NCBI RefSeq assembly: GCF_041248615.1
Contig: NZ_CP158426.1
Length of the DNA: 64,000 nt
Reading direction: 5' to 3' (one strand)
Source: Escherichia coli
Lineage (GTDB): Bacteria > Pseudomonadota > Gammaproteobacteria > Enterobacterales > Enterobacteriaceae
Shown here in pieces: positions 35,601 through 41,600 of the stretch (position 1 is the first letter of the stretch; the number at the start of each line of letters is the position of its first letter). Made by a program: the position numbers.

Positions 35601-38600
35601 GCAACTACTCCTCCTGGCTGGAGCAGAAAGATCAGCGCCTGGCGCAGGAAGCTTCACAAGAAGCTGCGCGTCGTAAGTCGATTGAGAAAGAGCTGGAGTG
35701 GGTACGTCAAGGTACTAAAGGCCGTCAGTCGAAAGGTAAAGCACGTCTGGCGCGTTTTGAAGAGCTGAACAGCACCGAATATCAGAAACGTAACGAAACC
35801 AACGAACTGTTTATTCCACCGGGACCGCGTCTTGGCGACAAAGTGCTGGAAGTCAGCAATCTGCGTAAATCCTATGGCGATCGTCTGCTGATTGATGACC
35901 TGAGCTTCTCGATCCCGAAAGGAGCGATCGTCGGGATCATCGGTCCGAACGGTGCGGGTAAATCGACGCTGTTCCGTATGATCTCTGGTCAGGAACAGCC
36001 GGACAGCGGCACCATCACTTTGGGTGAAACGGTGAAACTGGCATCGGTTGATCAGTTCCGTGACTCAATGGATAACAGCAAAACCGTTTGGGAAGAAGTT
36101 TCCGGCGGGCTGGATATCATGAAGATCGGCAACACCGAGATGCCAAGCCGTGCCTACGTTGGCCGCTTTAACTTTAAAGGGGTTGATCAGGGTAAACGCG
36201 TTGGCGAACTCTCCGGCGGTGAGCGCGGTCGTCTGCATCTGGCGAAGCTGCTGCAGGTTGGCGGCAACATGCTGCTGCTCGACGAACCAACCAACGACCT
36301 GGATATCGAAACCCTGCGCGCGCTGGAAAACGCCCTGCTGGAGTTCCCGGGCTGTGCGATGGTTATCTCGCACGACCGTTGGTTCCTCGACCGTATCGCC
36401 ACGCACATCCTGGACTACCAGGATGAAGGTAAAGTTGAGTTCTTCGAAGGTAACTTTACCGAGTACGAAGAGTACAAAAAACGCACGCTGGGCGCAGACG
36501 CGCTGGAGCCGAAGCGTATCAAGTACAAGCGTATTGCGAAGTAATGCGTAAAATGCCGGGTGCGGCGCGCCAGCATCGCATCCGGTATTAGTTAAATGAT
36601 TAGTCCCCGGAAAAAGGCAGAATTTTCTTTAAGCGTATTAGCTCAGATGCGGACTGACACCTCAAATCAAGCGGGAACTCATGGTTCCCGCTTAACGTTT
36701 TATTCACCGCGCAGGATCTGGCGGAAATGGGAAACCAGCGGACGTTGGTTGGCTTTATGCCAGGCTGCCCATAATTGCGTTGAATAATTCATCCACGGCA
36801 ATTCACGTAATACCACCCCTTCCGGCGCATTATGACGCAGACTATGTTGAATTAAGGCCAGACCTAATCCCGCAGCGACCAAACCTAATGCCGTGAGGGG
36901 TTCACCCGCTTCCAGGCGAATATCAGGATTAAACCCGGCGTTAACACAGGCGGCGACAAAATGATCGCGAGAATGCGCATCGTCGTTATGAATCACCGCA
37001 ATCCACTGCTCATCACCAAGTTGTGACGCGACAAGGTTTTCCTCCTGCGCCAGAGGATGATTTTGCGGTAAGGCCAACAACATTCGATCATCCAGAACCT
37101 GAATATATTCCAGATCCTGCTCGCTGTCGGTGGGCGGCGTATCGACCAGAGAAAAATCGAGACTGCGCTGGCGCAGGCCTTCAATCTGGGTCGCCGGTGG
37201 TTGGCTGTAAAGTGCGATATGCACATTCGGACGCGATACACGTAACGTACGTAGCGCCGTAGAAAGCACACCGGAATGCATGGCGTTTTCGATATAGCCA
37301 ATACACAAGCCACCATCTTCCCCCCGTCCCAGGCGTTTGCCTAACGACTCCAGGCGGTTGGCGTGTGTCAGCAACGAACGTGTTTCGGCAAGGAATGTCT
37401 GTCCATCAGCGGTCAGGCGAATGCGCTGCTGATTACGCTCAAACAGCGTCAGCCCCAGCCGTTCTTCCAGTTGTGCAATCTGGCGGCTCAGCGGTGATTG
37501 CGAGATATGTAATCGCTCGGCTGCGCGTCCCACGTGCTCTTCTTCTGCGACCACCACGAAGTACTTCAGTTGGCGTAAATCAATCATGTTAGACCTCAAA
37601 GGACTTAAGTCAGACGAATTATGTCCTATCAAGTCACAACCTCGCAAGGTATTGTGATCCACGTCACAGGGCGATAGCAAAAAAACGCCCTAACCCAAAC
37701 CGAATAATTGAGGACATCTTATGAGCATCAAAAATTTACTTCCCGGCAAAATTGGCTTAGGTGGCGCACCACTCGGCAACATGTTCCGTGCCATTCCGGA
37801 AGACGAGGCCCACGCCACCGTGAGCGAAGCCTGGAACCTGGGCGTGCGTTACTTTGATACCGCGCCGCTGTACGGCTCTGGCCTTTCTGAAATCCGCATG
37901 GGTGAAGCGCTGTCTCAGTATCCACGCGATGAATACGTTCTGAGCAGCAAAGTCGGTCGCATCATGCTGGACGAAATGGAAGATCCGGCAAAACGTGATT
38001 TCGGTGAAAAAGGTGGCCTGTTCGAACACGGCCTGAAAAACAAAATTCTGAATGACTACTCTGCTGACGCCACGCTGCGCTCGATTGAAGACAGCCTGAA
38101 ACGCCTGAAAACAGACCGTCTGGATATTGTCTGGATCCATGACCCGGCGCAGGACTTCTACGGTGACAGCTGGCTGGAACAGTTCAACATTGCCCGTACC
38201 GGTGCGTTTCGTGCGCTGACGCGTTTGCGTGACGAAGGTGTGATTAAAGCCTGGGGACTGGGTGTGAATCGCGTCGAACCTTGCGAACTGACGCTGGCGC
38301 TGGACGAACCGAAGCCGGATGCGTTCCTGCTGGCGGGGCGTTATTCCCTGCTGGATCACGAACGTGCGCTGCAACGCCTGATGCCAGAAGCACTGGAACA
38401 GAACGTGGATATCGTTGTGGGCGGTCCGTACAGCTCTGGCGTACTGGCAGGCGGCGAGCACTTTGAATATCAGATAGCTTCTGCGGCCATCCAGCAGAAA
38501 GTGGCGCAAATTAACACCATTGCCACACGTTTCAATGTGAACGTTAAAGCAGCTGCGCTGCAGTTCGCGCTGGCAAACCCGGCCGTTGCGGCGGTTATTC

Positions 38601-41600
38601 CTGGCTCCAGCCGTCCTGGCCGTATGGCAGAAGATCTGGCTGCACTGAATGCGCCTGTTCCGGCTGAATTCTGGGCAGAAATGCGCCGTCAAAATCTGGT
38701 TGCGGAAAACGCTCCGCTGCCGACCCGTTAATCAACCTGGTGAGAAAACGATGAAACTGGATCTGACAGGTAAAGTCGCGGTGGTCAGCGGCTCAACCTC
38801 CGGCATTGGGCAGGGTATCGCCGCCGGACTGGCAAAAGCAGGCGCAACGGTGGTTGTCGTCGGCCGTAAACAGCGCGGCGTTGATGACGCCATGGCAGCG
38901 ATTGCGACACAAACTCCCACGGCGTCACTGCGTGGCGTGGTGGCCGATCTCAGCACCGAAGACGGCGTGGCTGCGCTGATCGCTGCAGTCCCAACGGCTG
39001 ATGTGCTGGTCAATAATCTGGGCATTTTCAACGATAAAGATTTCTTTAGCGTTCCGGATGATGAGTGGATGCAATTCTATAACGTCAACGTCCTTTCCGG
39101 CGTTCGTCTGGCGCGTCACTATGCGCCAGGCATGACGGAACAGGGCTGGGGGCGGATTATCTTTGTCTCGTCCGAATCCGGCGTGGCAATCCCTGGCGAC
39201 ATGATCAACTACGGCGTCACCAAAGCCGCGAATCTGGCGGTCTCTCATGGTCTGGCGAAACGACTGGCGGGGACCGGTGTGACCGTCAACGCCATTCTGC
39301 CAGGGCCAACCTTTACCGATGGCCTGAAAGAGATGCTGGCGGATGCCGCTGCACAATCGGGACGCAGTGCGCGTGAACAGGCCGATGAGTTTGTTAAAAC
39401 CTCGCGTCCGAGCTCCATCATCCAGCGTGCGGCGGATGTGGAAGAAGTGGCGAATCTGGCGGTTTATCTCGCGTCACCGCTTTCCTCGGCAACCACAGGG
39501 GCAGCCCTGCGCGTCGATGGCGGCGTCGTCGACACCCTGACAATGTAACCCTATAAATTAAGAGAAAATTATCATGGCTAAAACAACTGTATCGATCGAA
39601 ATTCCGGCTTCTGCCGACGCCGTATGGCAATTGATGGGCGGCTTTGATGCGCTGCCAGACTGGCTGCCGTTCATCCCGAAAAGCGTAGTGACAGAAGGCG
39701 GTCGCGTTCGTTCGCTGACAACCTCTGACGGCGGCACTGTGGTTGAACGTCTGGAAGCGTTTGATAACCGTCAACGCAGTTATACCTATTCCATTATTCA
39801 GGCACCGTTCCCGGTGGTGGATTACCTCTCCACCATTACCGTTCATGAAACCGCCGACAGCCAGGTTTCCCGTGTGGAATGGTTCGGTGAATTCACCCCG
39901 GTGAATGTGACGAACGAAGAGGCCGAAGCGCTGTTTACCGGCATCTATCGGGATGGTCTCAAGGCGCTGAAGGACAACTTTGTTGCCTGATGCGATCGAC
40001 AGGCGTCGGAACGTCCGGCGTCTGATTATTAACAAAAACAGAATAGTCTATTGTCATTTGTATCATTTATGTTATCAGGCAGCAGGCGTATTCTCTTCCC
40101 ATCGCGTTAATAAACGCCAAACAATTAAGACACTCTGGAATATAAACATGAAAACGATCATCGCAATTTTTACAGCTTCTCTTTTCTCTGTCGCGGCGTT
40201 TAACGCATCGGCGCAAAGCGTAACAGCAACCGGTACAACACTGGATTCTGCGGAAGCAGTTATTGCGCAGAAAGCGAAAGAGATGAACGCCTCTGAATAC
40301 AAAATCACCAGCGCTCGCATGGGCAATACCGTCACCATGAGTGCCGAACTGTACAAATAACCGCGCAAGGGACCCATTACGTAATTTGCTAAATATGCGC
40401 TGAATGCGTTGCCATTAAAAAACCGTATTGTAATGCCACCGATGACACGTTCCCGTGCGGGTGACGTTACGACTGACATGATGGCGGACTATTACGCGCA
40501 GCGCGCCAGTGCAGGACTTATCATCAGCGAAGGTACGCAAATCAGCAGAAGCGCTGCGCATAATTTTCCACGGCACGCTGATTTACTCCGGTAAATACAC
40601 CAAAGCGCGCGCCGAAGCAGACTGTCAGATTTGATTGCATTCTGGCTACGCAACCGGTCGGTTGGAGTATGAAGTTGCTCACGAATAGCCTTAGCATCCG
40701 CAATTTCGTAGCGGGTCACCCGTACAGGTTCTTTCTAATCTCGACAGTCTCTTCCAGAGAGGTTTTCAACTCATCAAAAAACTTATTTTATACCTCGCCT
40801 TTGAGCCGTTTCGTCACGGTTATCTCTGCTCCCCCATCATCTCCCGCACTAGCTCCACGCAGCGCAGGAAACGGCTGTCATAATCGTCCTCTTCAACCCG
40901 CACGAATTCGATATTGTTCTCTTCCAGCATCTCCACCAGCAAGTTCTGGAACTCTTTGCGATCCACCGAACTGCCGAGGCTGCGTAAACCATCCGCCACC
41001 CACGGCGTGTTGTTCTCCAGCAGGATCACCAGATCGAAACGGTATTCATCAATCAGCGCCTGCACGAACGGATGCTCACGCCCTTCGTACTTTTTGCAGA
41101 ACGCCTGGGTAGTGACAAAATCAGTGTCAATAAACGCCACTTTATTGGCGTATTTCACTGCAAAATCAATGTATTGAGCGTGGCCCAGCGCGATTTTATC
41201 GTAGTCGGAATACTGCAATGCAATCTCATCACCGCCGAGGTGTGAAAAGACATAATCGCGACCATATTCCCACGCACTGGTGGTATTGAAGATATTGGCA
41301 AGTTTGTTTACCAGGGTGGATTTACCGCTCGACTCGCCGCCAAGGATCGCCACGGTACGCACAAAGAACGGCTTCACTTCCGTAGGAATATATTCCCAGT
41401 AGCGGAACGGGTTTTCGCGGATCTGCGCACCGCTGATACTCATAAAGGTACGTTTCGGATCGACCAGTACCGTCTCGATCCCCAGATGTTCCATATACTG
41501 TGGCGCATCGGCTTCTTCCGAGGTGTAGATCAGGTCCGGCTGGATCCCCTTTTCAGCCATAAACTTTTTGATGCCGTTGCTCCACACATCCCAGCCGTGC

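What the first reader, a model, noticed from the sequence alone, without database searches (positions are those of the whole stretch)
36545..40820. 4.3-kb redox islet between ettA and nadR
K-12 has only about 0.1 kb between ettA (yjjK) and nadR, as I recall. Here a divergent LysR regulator controls a co-directional set: aldo-keto reductase, SDR, SRPBCC protein, BhsA-like periplasmic protein and a truncated OYE-type flavin reductase. The composition suggests a regulated carbonyl/quinone/electrophile detoxification module, but the substrate is unknown and the 3' end has decayed.
Basis: partly seen in the sequence, partly recalled or inferred. Interest (0 to 1): 0.5.

Follow-up and report, generated by a model that had tools for sequence, protein, structure and literature searches.

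The report
Accessory oxidoreductase islet inside nadS
About 9% of E. coli strains carry a real but fairly ordinary 4-kb insert here: a regulator and three enzyme-type genes of unknown substrate, shared as one unit by very distant bacteria, followed by a decayed tail.

Summary
The ettA–nadR spacer is 4,275 bp here, against 307 bp in K-12-like strains and 765 bp in CFT073.

- **Distribution:** The islet is present in 482 of 5,426 complete E. coli genomes. It is always single-copy, chromosomal and at this site.
- **Insertion site:** It replaces about 113 bp of the nadS antitoxin gene in a decayed RelE/ParE–NadS toxin–antitoxin locus. There are no mobility genes.
- **Module 1:** lysR is divergent from AKR–SDR–SRPBCC. 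This unit recurs across Pseudomonadota, Actinomycetota and Bacillota, with a conserved ~55-nt promoter/operator block. It is under strong purifying selection in E. coli (pN/pS 0.02–0.10).
- **Module 2:** This is a DUF1471 gene plus a dead OYE gene. The same block occurs on its own in other Enterobacteriaceae.
- **Variable slot:** The window carries the commonest form, in which the slot is deleted (440 genomes).
- **Function:** The substrate is unknown. The Acinetobacter baumannii orthologues (ABUW_1479–1482) are induced in a glutathione-deficient mutant.

This is a new member of a known kind, of modest interest.

The parts
36596..36632 (-). 3' remnant of the nadS antitoxin gene, with an 11-bp internal deletion. 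This is host DNA to the left of the islet.
   Evidence: Aligns to the 3' end of intact nadS in CFT073 up to ...CTTTAA, then diverges.
36633..40673 (.). The islet proper (about 4.04 kb), which replaces about 113 bp of nadS.
   Evidence: Left junction is 36632|36633 and right junction is about 40670-40673, from alignments A1 and A2. The segment is found in 482 of 5,426 genomes, one chromosomal copy each.
36669..36693 (.). 11-bp-stem hairpin between ettA and the lysR stop. It looks like a terminator and lies inside the islet.
   Evidence: Terminator-like site.
36700..37587 (-). LysR-type transcriptional regulator, 295 aa.
   Evidence: Pfam HTH_1 + LysR_substrate. RefSeq WP_000566334.1. Orthologues at 60-93% identity sit divergently upstream of the AKR in other taxa. 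pN/pS 0.02.
37588..37720 (.). Divergent promoter/operator region. The conserved block is about 37588-37655.
- Candidate lysR promoter: -35 TTGCGA at 37647-37642 and -10 CATAAT at 37623-37618.
- Candidate AKR promoter: -10 TATTGT at 37650-37655.
   Evidence: Promoter-like site. Consensus of 59 distinct intergenic sequences from three phyla. The region is 99-100% identical among E. coli alleles, whereas the OYE remnant diverges by up to 6.6%.
37721..38731 (+). Aldo-keto reductase, 336 aa. It belongs to the aldose-1-dehydrogenase-like clade and carries a family-specific insertion.
   Evidence: Pfam PF00248 at 152 bits. 68-90% identical orthologues occur across phyla. D46, Y51, K77 and H140 are invariant. 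The nearest solved structures are L-galactose dehydrogenases.
38751..39548 (+). Classical short-chain dehydrogenase/reductase, 265 aa.
   Evidence: Pfam adh_short / adh_short_C2. About 83% identical to PDB 8G9M. YxxxK and the glycine-rich motif are visible in the sequence.
39574..39990 (+). SRPBCC (Polyketide_cyc2) protein, 138 aa.
   Evidence: Pfam PF10604. PDB 3CNW 'XoxI' and 3F08 match at E about 1e-51. It follows the AKR within 3 kb in 63 of 80 loci.
40000..40024 (+). Hairpin after the SRPBCC stop, followed by a weak T tract. It is the probable end of the LysR-controlled operon and marks the boundary between module 1 and module 2.
   Evidence: Folds at -18.1 kcal/mol, but the z-score is only -1.7. 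Homology to Enterobacter ends at 39986, and homology to the DUF1471-OYE block starts at 40021.
40148..40360 (+). DUF1471 (YdgH/BhsA/McbA-like) small secreted protein, 70 aa.
   Evidence: Pfam PF07338. Below every NCBIfam equivalog cut-off. pN/pS 0.03. About 90% identical (63 of 70 residues, counted from the two translations) to the DUF1471 of locus L095.
40379..40612 (+). Dead Old Yellow Enzyme (NemA-like) gene.
- Start codon ATG changed to ACG.
- Codon 2 is now TAA.
- 686-bp internal deletion at 40546|40547, with a frame shift.
- The 3' end is missing.
   Evidence: RefSeq marks it as a partial pseudogene.
40613..40673 (.). Deletion junction (4-bp microhomology CGAA at 40613-40616) followed by the conserved right end of the islet.
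   Evidence: BLAST against the longer variants L004, L005 and L101. The junction form occurs in 440 genomes.
40674..40790 (-). 5' remnant of nadS. The start codon is lost (ATG to ATA) and there are 1-bp and 10-bp deletions.
   Evidence: Alignment A2 against CFT073 and K-12. Annotated as a NadS pseudogene in sister genomes.
40793..40817 (-). Last ~25 bp of the RelE/ParE toxin gene. The rest is deleted, at the same junction as in K-12.
   Evidence: Comparison.

Best explanation
This is a chromosomal accessory islet that replaced the middle of the nadS antitoxin gene in an already decayed RelE/ParE-NadS toxin-antitoxin locus between ettA and nadR. It carries no mobility genes and most likely moves between E. 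coli lineages by homologous recombination of the flanking core genes.

It has two working parts and a decayed tail.

**Part 1: the regulated unit.** This is lysR divergent from AKR-SDR-SRPBCC. The LysR protein binds the conserved block beside its own gene. That block overlaps both the lysR promoter and the -35 region of the AKR promoter. When LysR senses a small-molecule inducer, it activates the three-gene operon (inferred).

The two NAD(P)(H)-dependent oxidoreductases then transform a small, probably hydrophobic, carbonyl-bearing compound. The SRPBCC protein binds, or helps convert, the substrate or product (inferred). The most likely physiological role is protection against a reactive carbonyl, quinone or electrophile when thiol buffering is insufficient (inferred).

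**Part 2: a separate unit.** A DUF1471 periplasmic stress-type protein with its own upstream region sits next to a dead OYE ene-reductase gene.

**Shown here:** anatomy, junctions, distribution, selection, synteny and the conserved operator block.
**Inferred:** inducer, substrate, direction of catalysis and the role of SRPBCC.
For: **Anatomy and families:**

**Site and junctions:**

**Distribution:**
- 482 of 5,426 genomes carry it, one chromosomal copy each, always joined to ettA and nadR.
- The intact toxin-antitoxin pair is present in 673 genomes.

**The genes are kept in working order:**
- pN/pS is 0.02-0.10 and pS is 0.04-0.09 among five alleles.
- The lysR-AKR spacer is 99-100% conserved, while the OYE remnant drifts by up to 6.6%.

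**Module conservation:**
- Across 80 species-representative loci: LysR+AKR+SDR+SRPBCC in 26, LysR+AKR+SRPBCC in 25, AKR+SRPBCC in 12.
- The module also occurs in Enterobacter, Serratia, Ewingella (on a plasmid), Klebsiella and Acinetobacter.
- No other conserved neighbour was found.

**Regulation:**
- The operator/promoter block is conserved across phyla.
- A lysR promoter-like site lies inside it.

**Function hints:**
- A. baumannii ABUW_1480-1482 rise 2.0-2.4 log2, and the LysR gene ABUW_1479 rises 1.5, in a gshA mutant. The same paper cites induction under zinc stress (PMC12914303). Orthology was checked.
- An OYE gene is adjacent in four independent non-E. coli lineages, HxlR in four loci and DJ-1/PfpI in two.

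**Catalytic residues:** the AKR tetrad is invariant and the SDR YxxxK motif is present.
Against: - No substrate, inducer or expression data exist for E. coli.
- The AKR's nearest solved relatives are L-galactose dehydrogenases, which oxidise sugars rather than reduce toxic carbonyls. Automated names call the family D-threo-aldose 1-dehydrogenase.
- The electrophile-type neighbours are rare (OYE in 4 of 89 loci).
- The gshA result is a single transcriptome from another genus, and that mutant changes many genes.
- The hairpin after SRPBCC is not significantly more stable than shuffled sequence, so read-through into the DUF1471 gene is not excluded.
- No clear T-N11-A dyad could be assigned by eye in the conserved block.
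Confidence: 0.5

Rival explanations
1. The module is catabolic or oxidative rather than protective. The AKR would act as an NAD(P)+-dependent aldose or lactol 1-dehydrogenase producing a lactone, as L-galactose and L-fucose dehydrogenases do. The SDR would oxidise or reduce a neighbouring hydroxyl or keto group. LysR would induce the operon with a plant- or soil-derived sugar-like compound.
For: - The best solved relatives of the AKR are L-galactose dehydrogenases, at E 1e-29 to 1e-35.
- Source annotations read 'D-threo-aldose 1-dehydrogenase'.
- The SDR's nearest named relatives include sorbose reductase, 3-hydroxybutyrate dehydrogenase and glucose 1-dehydrogenase.
- The module is most common in soil and plant-associated genera and on their megaplasmids.
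Against: - No transporter, lactonase, dehydratase, kinase or aldolase is conserved next to the module in about 90 loci.
- Similarity to the sugar dehydrogenases is only partial, and every NCBIfam score is far below its cut-off.
- SRPBCC proteins bind hydrophobic ligands (established knowledge of the superfamily).
- Induction in a glutathione-deficient mutant does not fit a sugar regulon.
Confidence: 0.2
2. The islet was not recently acquired. It is an old resident of the E. coli lineage that most lineages have since lost, which would make the K-12-type site a deletion product.
For: - Synonymous divergence among islet alleles (pS 0.04-0.09) is of the same order as in the flanking core genes, which are 96-99% identical.
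- GC content (55%) and GC3 are unremarkable for this region.
- The nearest non-E. coli DNA is only about 78% identical.
- Islet strains and K-12 share the same toxin-gene deletion junction.
Against: - The islet interrupts nadS, which is intact together with its toxin in 673 genomes. Insertion is therefore derived relative to that state.
- The module lies at unrelated chromosomal sites in Klebsiella, Enterobacter, Serratia and Acinetobacter.
- K-12 lacks the nadS 3' remnant that islet strains keep, so a simple deletion of the islet does not produce the K-12 sequence.
Confidence: 0.25
3. The whole islet is a decaying, non-functional remnant.
For: The OYE gene is dead, the variable slot is deleted, nadS and the toxin gene are destroyed, and one strain has an SDR/SRPBCC deletion plus IS1.
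Against: All five intact genes have pN/pS of 0.02-0.10, and the LysR protein is identical in several alleles that differ at synonymous sites. 440 genomes keep the same form.
Confidence: 0.03

Closest known systems
Acinetobacter baumannii ABUW_1479-1482 (LysR, AKR, SDR, SRPBCC), with the SDR crystal structure PDB 8G9M
   Same: The gene order and divergent LysR are the same. Identities to the A. nosocomialis locus are LysR 77%, AKR 85%, SDR 83% and SRPBCC 57%, and the lysR-proximal operator block is nearly identical. 8G9M is 98% identical to that Acinetobacter SDR.
   Different: It lies at a different chromosomal site (gltS to csu) and has no DUF1471 or OYE tail. It is also uncharacterised biochemically. 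The only functional data are induction in a gshA mutant and a cited induction under zinc stress.
E. coli nemRA-gloA and yqhC-yqhD-dkgA electrophile/aldehyde detoxification units
   Same: The logic is the same: a dedicated regulator beside NAD(P)H-dependent reductases (OYE, AKR) that act on reactive carbonyls. The dead OYE gene here best matches the NemA subfamily model.
   Different: The regulators differ (TetR-type NemR and AraC-type YqhC, from established knowledge). There is no SRPBCC partner. The NemA match scores 56 bits against a cut-off of 403 because only a fragment is left. The AKR here is not DkgA or DkgB (28-38 bits against cut-offs of 327-425).
Plant L-galactose dehydrogenase and bacterial D-threo-aldose (L-fucose) 1-dehydrogenase clade of the AKR superfamily
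   Same: These are the closest solved relatives of the AKR, with a shared N-terminal cofactor/catalytic region.
   Different: The match is split into two stretches around a family-specific insertion of about 30 residues. The genomic context has no sugar-pathway genes.
Bacillus cereus group SRPBCC proteins, PDB 3CNW ('XoxI') and 3F08
   Same: They match the SRPBCC protein over its full length at E about 1e-51.
   Different: They are structural-genomics entries with no assigned function.
DUF1471 family stress proteins BhsA, YhcN and RclB
   Same: The domain (PF07338) is the same, and the protein is small with a signal-peptide-like N-terminus.
   Different: It scores 27-31 bits against equivalog cut-offs of 90-125, so it is a different family member.
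RelE/ParE-NadS (HigBA-like) type II toxin-antitoxin locus next to nadR
   Same: The islet sits inside this locus, and both ends of nadS and the last bases of the toxin gene are recognisable.
   Different: Here the locus is destroyed. It is the insertion site, not part of the islet's function.

Membership tests
LysR-type transcriptional regulator unit | N-terminal HTH_1 domain plus LysR substrate-binding domain | tested here: met
   PF00126 at 85.7 bits and PF03466 at 133.8 bits, both above the gathering score.
LysR-type transcriptional regulator unit | Divergent transcription from the regulated operon across a short shared spacer | tested here: met
   The spacer is 133 bp in the window. The same arrangement, with an orthologous LysR, occurs in 59 of 80 loci.
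LysR-type transcriptional regulator unit | T-N11-A dyad binding site in the spacer, and binding by the protein | tested here: inconclusive
   A ~55-nt conserved block exists, but no unambiguous dyad was assigned. Binding cannot be tested with these tools.
Named LysR equivalogs (AlsR, HcaR, GltC, OxyR and others) | Score above the NCBIfam curated cut-off | tested here: not met
   The best score is AlsR at 223 bits against a cut-off of 430. All others are also below their cut-offs.
Aldo-keto reductase superfamily | Aldo_ket_red domain over the full length, with the Asp-Tyr-Lys-His catalytic tetrad | tested here: met
   PF00248 at 151.9 bits over residues 10-322. D46, Y51, K77 and H140 are invariant in 13 orthologues. 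Assigning these residues to the tetrad is by inspection.
Characterised AKR equivalogs (YdjG methylglyoxal reductase, DkgA, DkgB) | Score above the NCBIfam curated cut-off | tested here: not met
   YdjG scores 70.8 against 550, DkgB 38 against 327 and DkgA 28 against 425.
Classical short-chain dehydrogenase/reductase | adh_short domain, glycine-rich cofactor motif and Ser...YxxxK catalytic motif | tested here: met
   PF00106 at 131 bits and PF13561 at 153 bits. GSTSGIG, SSESG and YGVTK are visible in the sequence.
Named SDR subfamilies (FabG, glucose 1-dehydrogenase, 3-hydroxybutyrate dehydrogenase) | Score above the NCBIfam curated cut-off | tested here: not met
   The best score is 155.7 against 215. 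All others are also below their cut-offs.
SRPBCC / Polyketide_cyc2 | Full-length match to PF10604 | tested here: met
   106.6 bits over residues 1-136. Close solved homologues are 3CNW and 3F08.
Polyketide cyclase in a biosynthetic cluster | Adjacent polyketide synthase or other biosynthetic genes | tested here: not met
   None in the window or among the conserved neighbours in about 90 loci.
Old Yellow Enzyme (NemA-like) flavin reductase | Intact TIM-barrel ORF of about 365 aa | tested here: not met
   About 56 N-terminal and 22 C-terminal codons remain in the window. The start codon is lost, there is a stop at codon 2, a 686-bp deletion and a frame shift.
Classical genomic island | Integrase or transposase, tRNA or att site, flanking direct repeats, atypical composition | tested here: not met
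   - No such genes are present.
- There is no target duplication, and 113 bp are replaced.
- GC is 55% against 51% for the window and 55% for ettA.
- There are no Rfam matches.
Type II toxin-antitoxin RelE/ParE-NadS | Intact toxin and antitoxin ORFs | tested here: not met
   Only fragments remain in the window. The pair is intact in CFT073 and in 673 genomes.

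The most novel reading that the evidence does not exclude
The LysR-AKR-(SDR)-SRPBCC unit is a self-contained, horizontally travelling cassette that carries its own regulator and operator. It is kept at 60-78% protein identity from E. coli to Streptomyces and Bacillales. On this reading it senses and removes one specific, still unidentified reactive carbonyl or quinone that accumulates when thiol buffering fails, and the SRPBCC protein is an obligatory ligand-handling or catalytic partner of the AKR. Such an enzyme partnership has not been described.
Probability: 0.25. Interest if true: 0.55.

Novelty: new member of a known kind. Interest (0 to 1): 0.3.

Why it matters
- **A natural test bed.** E. 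coli strains differ in whether they carry a compact, uncharacterised four-gene module. The same module is present in A. baumannii and K. pneumoniae, and one of its enzymes already has a solved structure (8G9M) with no assigned function.
- **A possible new defence.** If the glutathione link holds, this would be another inducible defence against reactive carbonyls.
- **A population marker.** The ettA–nadR spacer has several states (intact toxin–antitoxin pair, remnant, or islet with four tail variants), which makes it a convenient marker of E. coli population structure.
- **Nothing unexpected in kind.** None of this overturns what is expected of accessory islets or LysR-regulated operons.

Tried and rejected
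1. **OYE C-terminus misreading.** I first read 40620-40665 as the frame-shifted C-terminus of OYE ('DLIAFW'). BLAST against longer variants showed it is the shared right end of the islet, joined to OYE by a deletion.
2. **Integron-like or hairpin-targeted cassette slot.** Four alternative contents, and an 11-bp inverted repeat in two of them, suggested this. However, the right-end sequence occurs only in E. coli at this site, in the same variants, and there is no integrase. The question is left unexplained.
3. **AKR-SRPBCC fusion proteins as evidence of partnership.** None were found among the 150 best of 2,402 hits. Only tandem double-SRPBCC proteins appeared.
4. **Finding an intact close OYE.** Searching with the concatenated remnant returned mostly fragments. 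Context came from two of those fragments.
5. **Other conserved neighbours.** Clustering neighbour ORFs in about 86 loci gave only lineage-specific synteny. The upstream regulators in Bacillota are heterogeneous.
6. **Known RNA families.** There were no Rfam matches.
7. **Literature.** Ten searches found one relevant transcriptome paper and one paper on nadS expression.
8. **Phylogroup cross-tabulation.** This was not possible because the tools list at most 60 records per search.

Full report

Yes. Between the ettA stop (36544) and the nadR stop (40820) lie 4,275 bp. They hold a LysR gene on the minus strand, followed on the plus strand by an aldo-keto reductase (AKR), a short-chain dehydrogenase (SDR), an SRPBCC protein, a DUF1471/BhsA-like protein and a fragment of an Old Yellow Enzyme (OYE) gene.

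Each product matches its Pfam family above the curated threshold. The OYE match covers only profile positions 11-65 of 342. The window is 100% identical to E. coli isolate 362 (NZ_OW967178.1), where RefSeq annotates the same genes and flags the OYE as a partial pseudogene.

The spacer there is 307 bp, not about 0.1 kb. It contains a 55-aa nadS remnant and REP-like repeats. One paper reports that this remnant is expressed (PMC12350097).

**2. Where exactly is the foreign DNA, and what did it hit?**

CFT073 carries an intact RelE/ParE toxin gene and NadS antitoxin gene in this spacer. Aligning the window to it gives the following picture:
- 36596-36632 is the 3' end of nadS.
- 40674-40790 is the 5' part of nadS. 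Its start codon has changed to ATA, and it has small deletions.
- About 25 bp of the toxin gene remain next to nadR. The rest is deleted at the same junction as in K-12.

The islet proper is therefore 36633 to about 40673. It replaced about 113 bp of nadS. There is no target duplication, integrase, IS element, tRNA or Rfam match. Composition is unremarkable: 55% GC for module 1, 46.5% for module 2 and 55% for ettA.

**3. Distribution**

Islet-internal DNA occurs in 482 of 5,426 complete E. coli genomes. It is always present once, always chromosomal, and 98-100% identical. All 482 genomes also match the query that spans both flanks, so the site is fixed. The intact toxin-antitoxin pair occurs in 673 genomes. 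Most of the remainder carry only a nadS remnant.

Carriers include O145:H28, O166:H15 and many human, animal and water isolates. I could not cross-tabulate phylogroups.

**4. Structural variants and decay**

All variants share the same dead OYE gene:
- The start codon ATG has become ACG, and codon 2 is TAA.
- There is a 686-bp internal deletion at 40546|40547.
- The gene is truncated after ...GFGRPY.

Between that truncation and a conserved right end of about 55 bp lies a variable slot with four known states:

| Slot content | Genomes |
|---|---|
| Winged-helix regulator plus TauE/SafE exporter | 21 |
| GNAT acetyltransferase | 20 |
| DUF2846 gene | 1 |
| Deleted (the window form) | 440 |

The window form arose by a deletion through a 4-bp microhomology at 40613-40616. 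Two of the cassettes are bounded by an 11-bp inverted repeat. The mechanism is unexplained. The right-end sequence was found only in E. coli at this site.

**5. The islet is a mosaic**

*Module 1 (36633 to about 40020).* This is lysR divergent from AKR-SDR-SRPBCC. The same four genes in the same order occur at unrelated sites in:
- Enterobacter bugandensis (78.6% nucleotide identity)
- Serratia
- an Ewingella plasmid
- Klebsiella pneumoniae, next to crl, with a DUF1471 gene following
- Acinetobacter
- Pseudomonas

Streptomyces has LysR-AKR-SRPBCC without the SDR. A Bacillus-like genome has OYE and HxlR genes followed by AKR-SRPBCC.

A scan of one genome per species returned 80 loci with AKR orthologues at 68-85% identity, from Pseudomonadota, Actinomycetota, Bacillota and Bacteroidota. 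The gene content of those loci was as follows:

| Genes present | Loci |
|---|---|
| LysR + AKR + SDR + SRPBCC | 26 |
| LysR + AKR + SRPBCC | 25 |
| AKR + SRPBCC | 12 |
| LysR + AKR | 8 |
| AKR alone | 9 |

No other neighbour is conserved. AKR orthologues also sit on 53 plasmids or megaplasmids of soil and plant-associated bacteria.

*Module 2 (40021-40612).* This is DUF1471 plus OYE. From 40021 onward it is 83.6% identical to a DUF1471-OYE block, followed in one locus by a GNAT gene, that stands alone in other Enterobacteriaceae. A DUF1471 gene is next to the module in none of the 80 scanned loci, and an OYE gene in one.

A hairpin follows the SRPBCC stop at 40000-40024. It folds at -18 kcal/mol but is not significantly more stable than shuffled sequence. 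It marks the seam between the two modules.

**6. Regulation**

The lysR-proximal ~55 nt of the divergent spacer is conserved in 59 distinct sequences from three phyla. The consensus is T.AGACCT...ggGACTcAAgT....C..AttatGTCTTGGAC.GtCt.a......cAa.CTA...T. The Acinetobacter and Klebsiella versions are nearly identical to the E. coli version.

Candidate promoter elements within the block:
- The lysR promoter-like site: -35 TTGCGA and -10 CATAAT.
- A -35-like TTGGAC (TATCAA in enterics), followed 18 nt later by TAnnnT. In the window this is TATTGT at 37650-37655. I read this pair as the AKR promoter, by inspection.

Among E. coli alleles the spacer is 99-100% identical, while the neutral OYE remnant differs by up to 6.6%. 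This supports LysR control of AKR-SDR-SRPBCC. It does not extend to the DUF1471 gene.

**7. Are the genes alive?**

Yes. Among five E. coli alleles, pN/pS is 0.02 (LysR), 0.05 (AKR), 0.07 (SDR), 0.10 (SRPBCC) and 0.03 (DUF1471), with pS of 0.04-0.09. The AKR catalytic residues are invariant, and the SDR motifs are intact. The level of synonymous divergence implies long residence in the species.

**8. What does it do?**

No curated family assigns a function. Every NCBIfam hit is far below its cut-off.

The solved relatives are uninformative on substrate:
- The SDR is about 83% identical to 8G9M. 8G9M is itself 98% identical to the Acinetobacter orthologue.
- The SRPBCC protein matches 3CNW and 3F08.

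The AKR's nearest solved relatives are plant L-galactose dehydrogenases.

The only functional data found are from A. baumannii. The orthologous ABUW_1480-1482 rise 2.0-2.4 log2, and the LysR gene ABUW_1479 rises 1.5, in a glutathione-deficient gshA mutant. The authors also cite induction under zinc stress (PMC12914303). I checked orthology through the A. nosocomialis locus.

Other hints come from occasional neighbours. An OYE gene is adjacent in four independent lineages, HxlR in four loci and DJ-1/PfpI in two. No sugar-pathway genes are present.

Taken together, this favours an inducible module that transforms a reactive or hydrophobic carbonyl compound. I give that reading about 0.5 and the oxidative sugar/lactol role about 0.2.

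**9. Comparison with what is known, and verdict**

In logic the unit resembles nemRA-gloA and yqhC-yqhD-dkgA. It is not a member of either. Its true orthologues, in A. baumannii, K. pneumoniae and Pseudomonas, are themselves uncharacterised.

The islet is a real accessory feature and is already annotated generically in RefSeq. It is ordinary in kind: a new member of a known kind. Its main value is as a natural presence/absence system for studying a widespread module of unknown function. Interest is 0.3.

Noticed in passing
window 40546-40673; L004:5186-6775, L005:5186-5920, L101:6052-7067: A variable slot lies between the dead OYE gene and the islet's right end. It has four alternative contents in E. 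coli: empty, wHTH+TauE/SafE, GNAT or DUF2846. Two of the cassettes are bounded by the 11-bp inverted repeat AAGCGGAAGTT / AACTTCCGCTT. How they are exchanged is unexplained.
   Followed up: partly
window 36545-36632 and 40674-40819; L002, L003: The ettA-nadR spacer is a multi-state site in E. coli. The intact RelE/ParE-NadS pair occurs in 673 of 5,426 genomes and the islet in 482. The rest carry a nadS remnant (55 aa in K-12, reported as expressed in PMC12350097) or nothing.
   Followed up: partly
window 37588-37655; the same block in L007-L093, L118, L120: About 55 nt of non-coding DNA next to lysR is conserved from Enterobacterales and Acinetobacter to Streptomyces. This is unusually deep conservation for an operator/promoter and suggests that regulator, operator and enzymes travel together.
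   Followed up: partly
L118:4894-8244 (Acinetobacter nosocomialis); PDB 8G9M: The module is orthologous to A. baumannii ABUW_1479-1482, which is induced in a gshA mutant. The structural-genomics entry 8G9M is the SDR of this module and has no assigned function.
   Followed up: yes
L120:4904-8617 (Klebsiella pneumoniae): K. pneumoniae has LysR-AKR-SDR-SRPBCC-DUF1471 next to crl-frsA-gpt. The DUF1471 gene therefore follows the module in at least one other genus, although it is absent from the 80 scanned species loci.
   Followed up: partly
L071:4138-7500 (Marininema mesophilum); L047:5610-5885: L071 has a tandem duplication of the AKR-SRPBCC pair, and L047 has a second, partial SRPBCC copy upstream of the AKR. 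The representative search also found tandem double-SRPBCC proteins of 278-329 aa.
   Followed up: no
L006:3321-4075 and 6545-7242 (E. coli E300010): In one carrier strain a deletion has fused the SDR and SRPBCC genes, and an IS1A sits between the nadS remnant and nadR. This is an example of ongoing erosion of the islet.
   Followed up: no
L116:241-5511 (Priestia filamentosa plasmid pBEH6): On a 69-kb plasmid the AKR orthologue follows a flavin reductase, an OYE and a DJ-1/PfpI-type protein, with no SRPBCC gene annotated. This is a carbonyl-stress-like neighbourhood.
   Followed up: no
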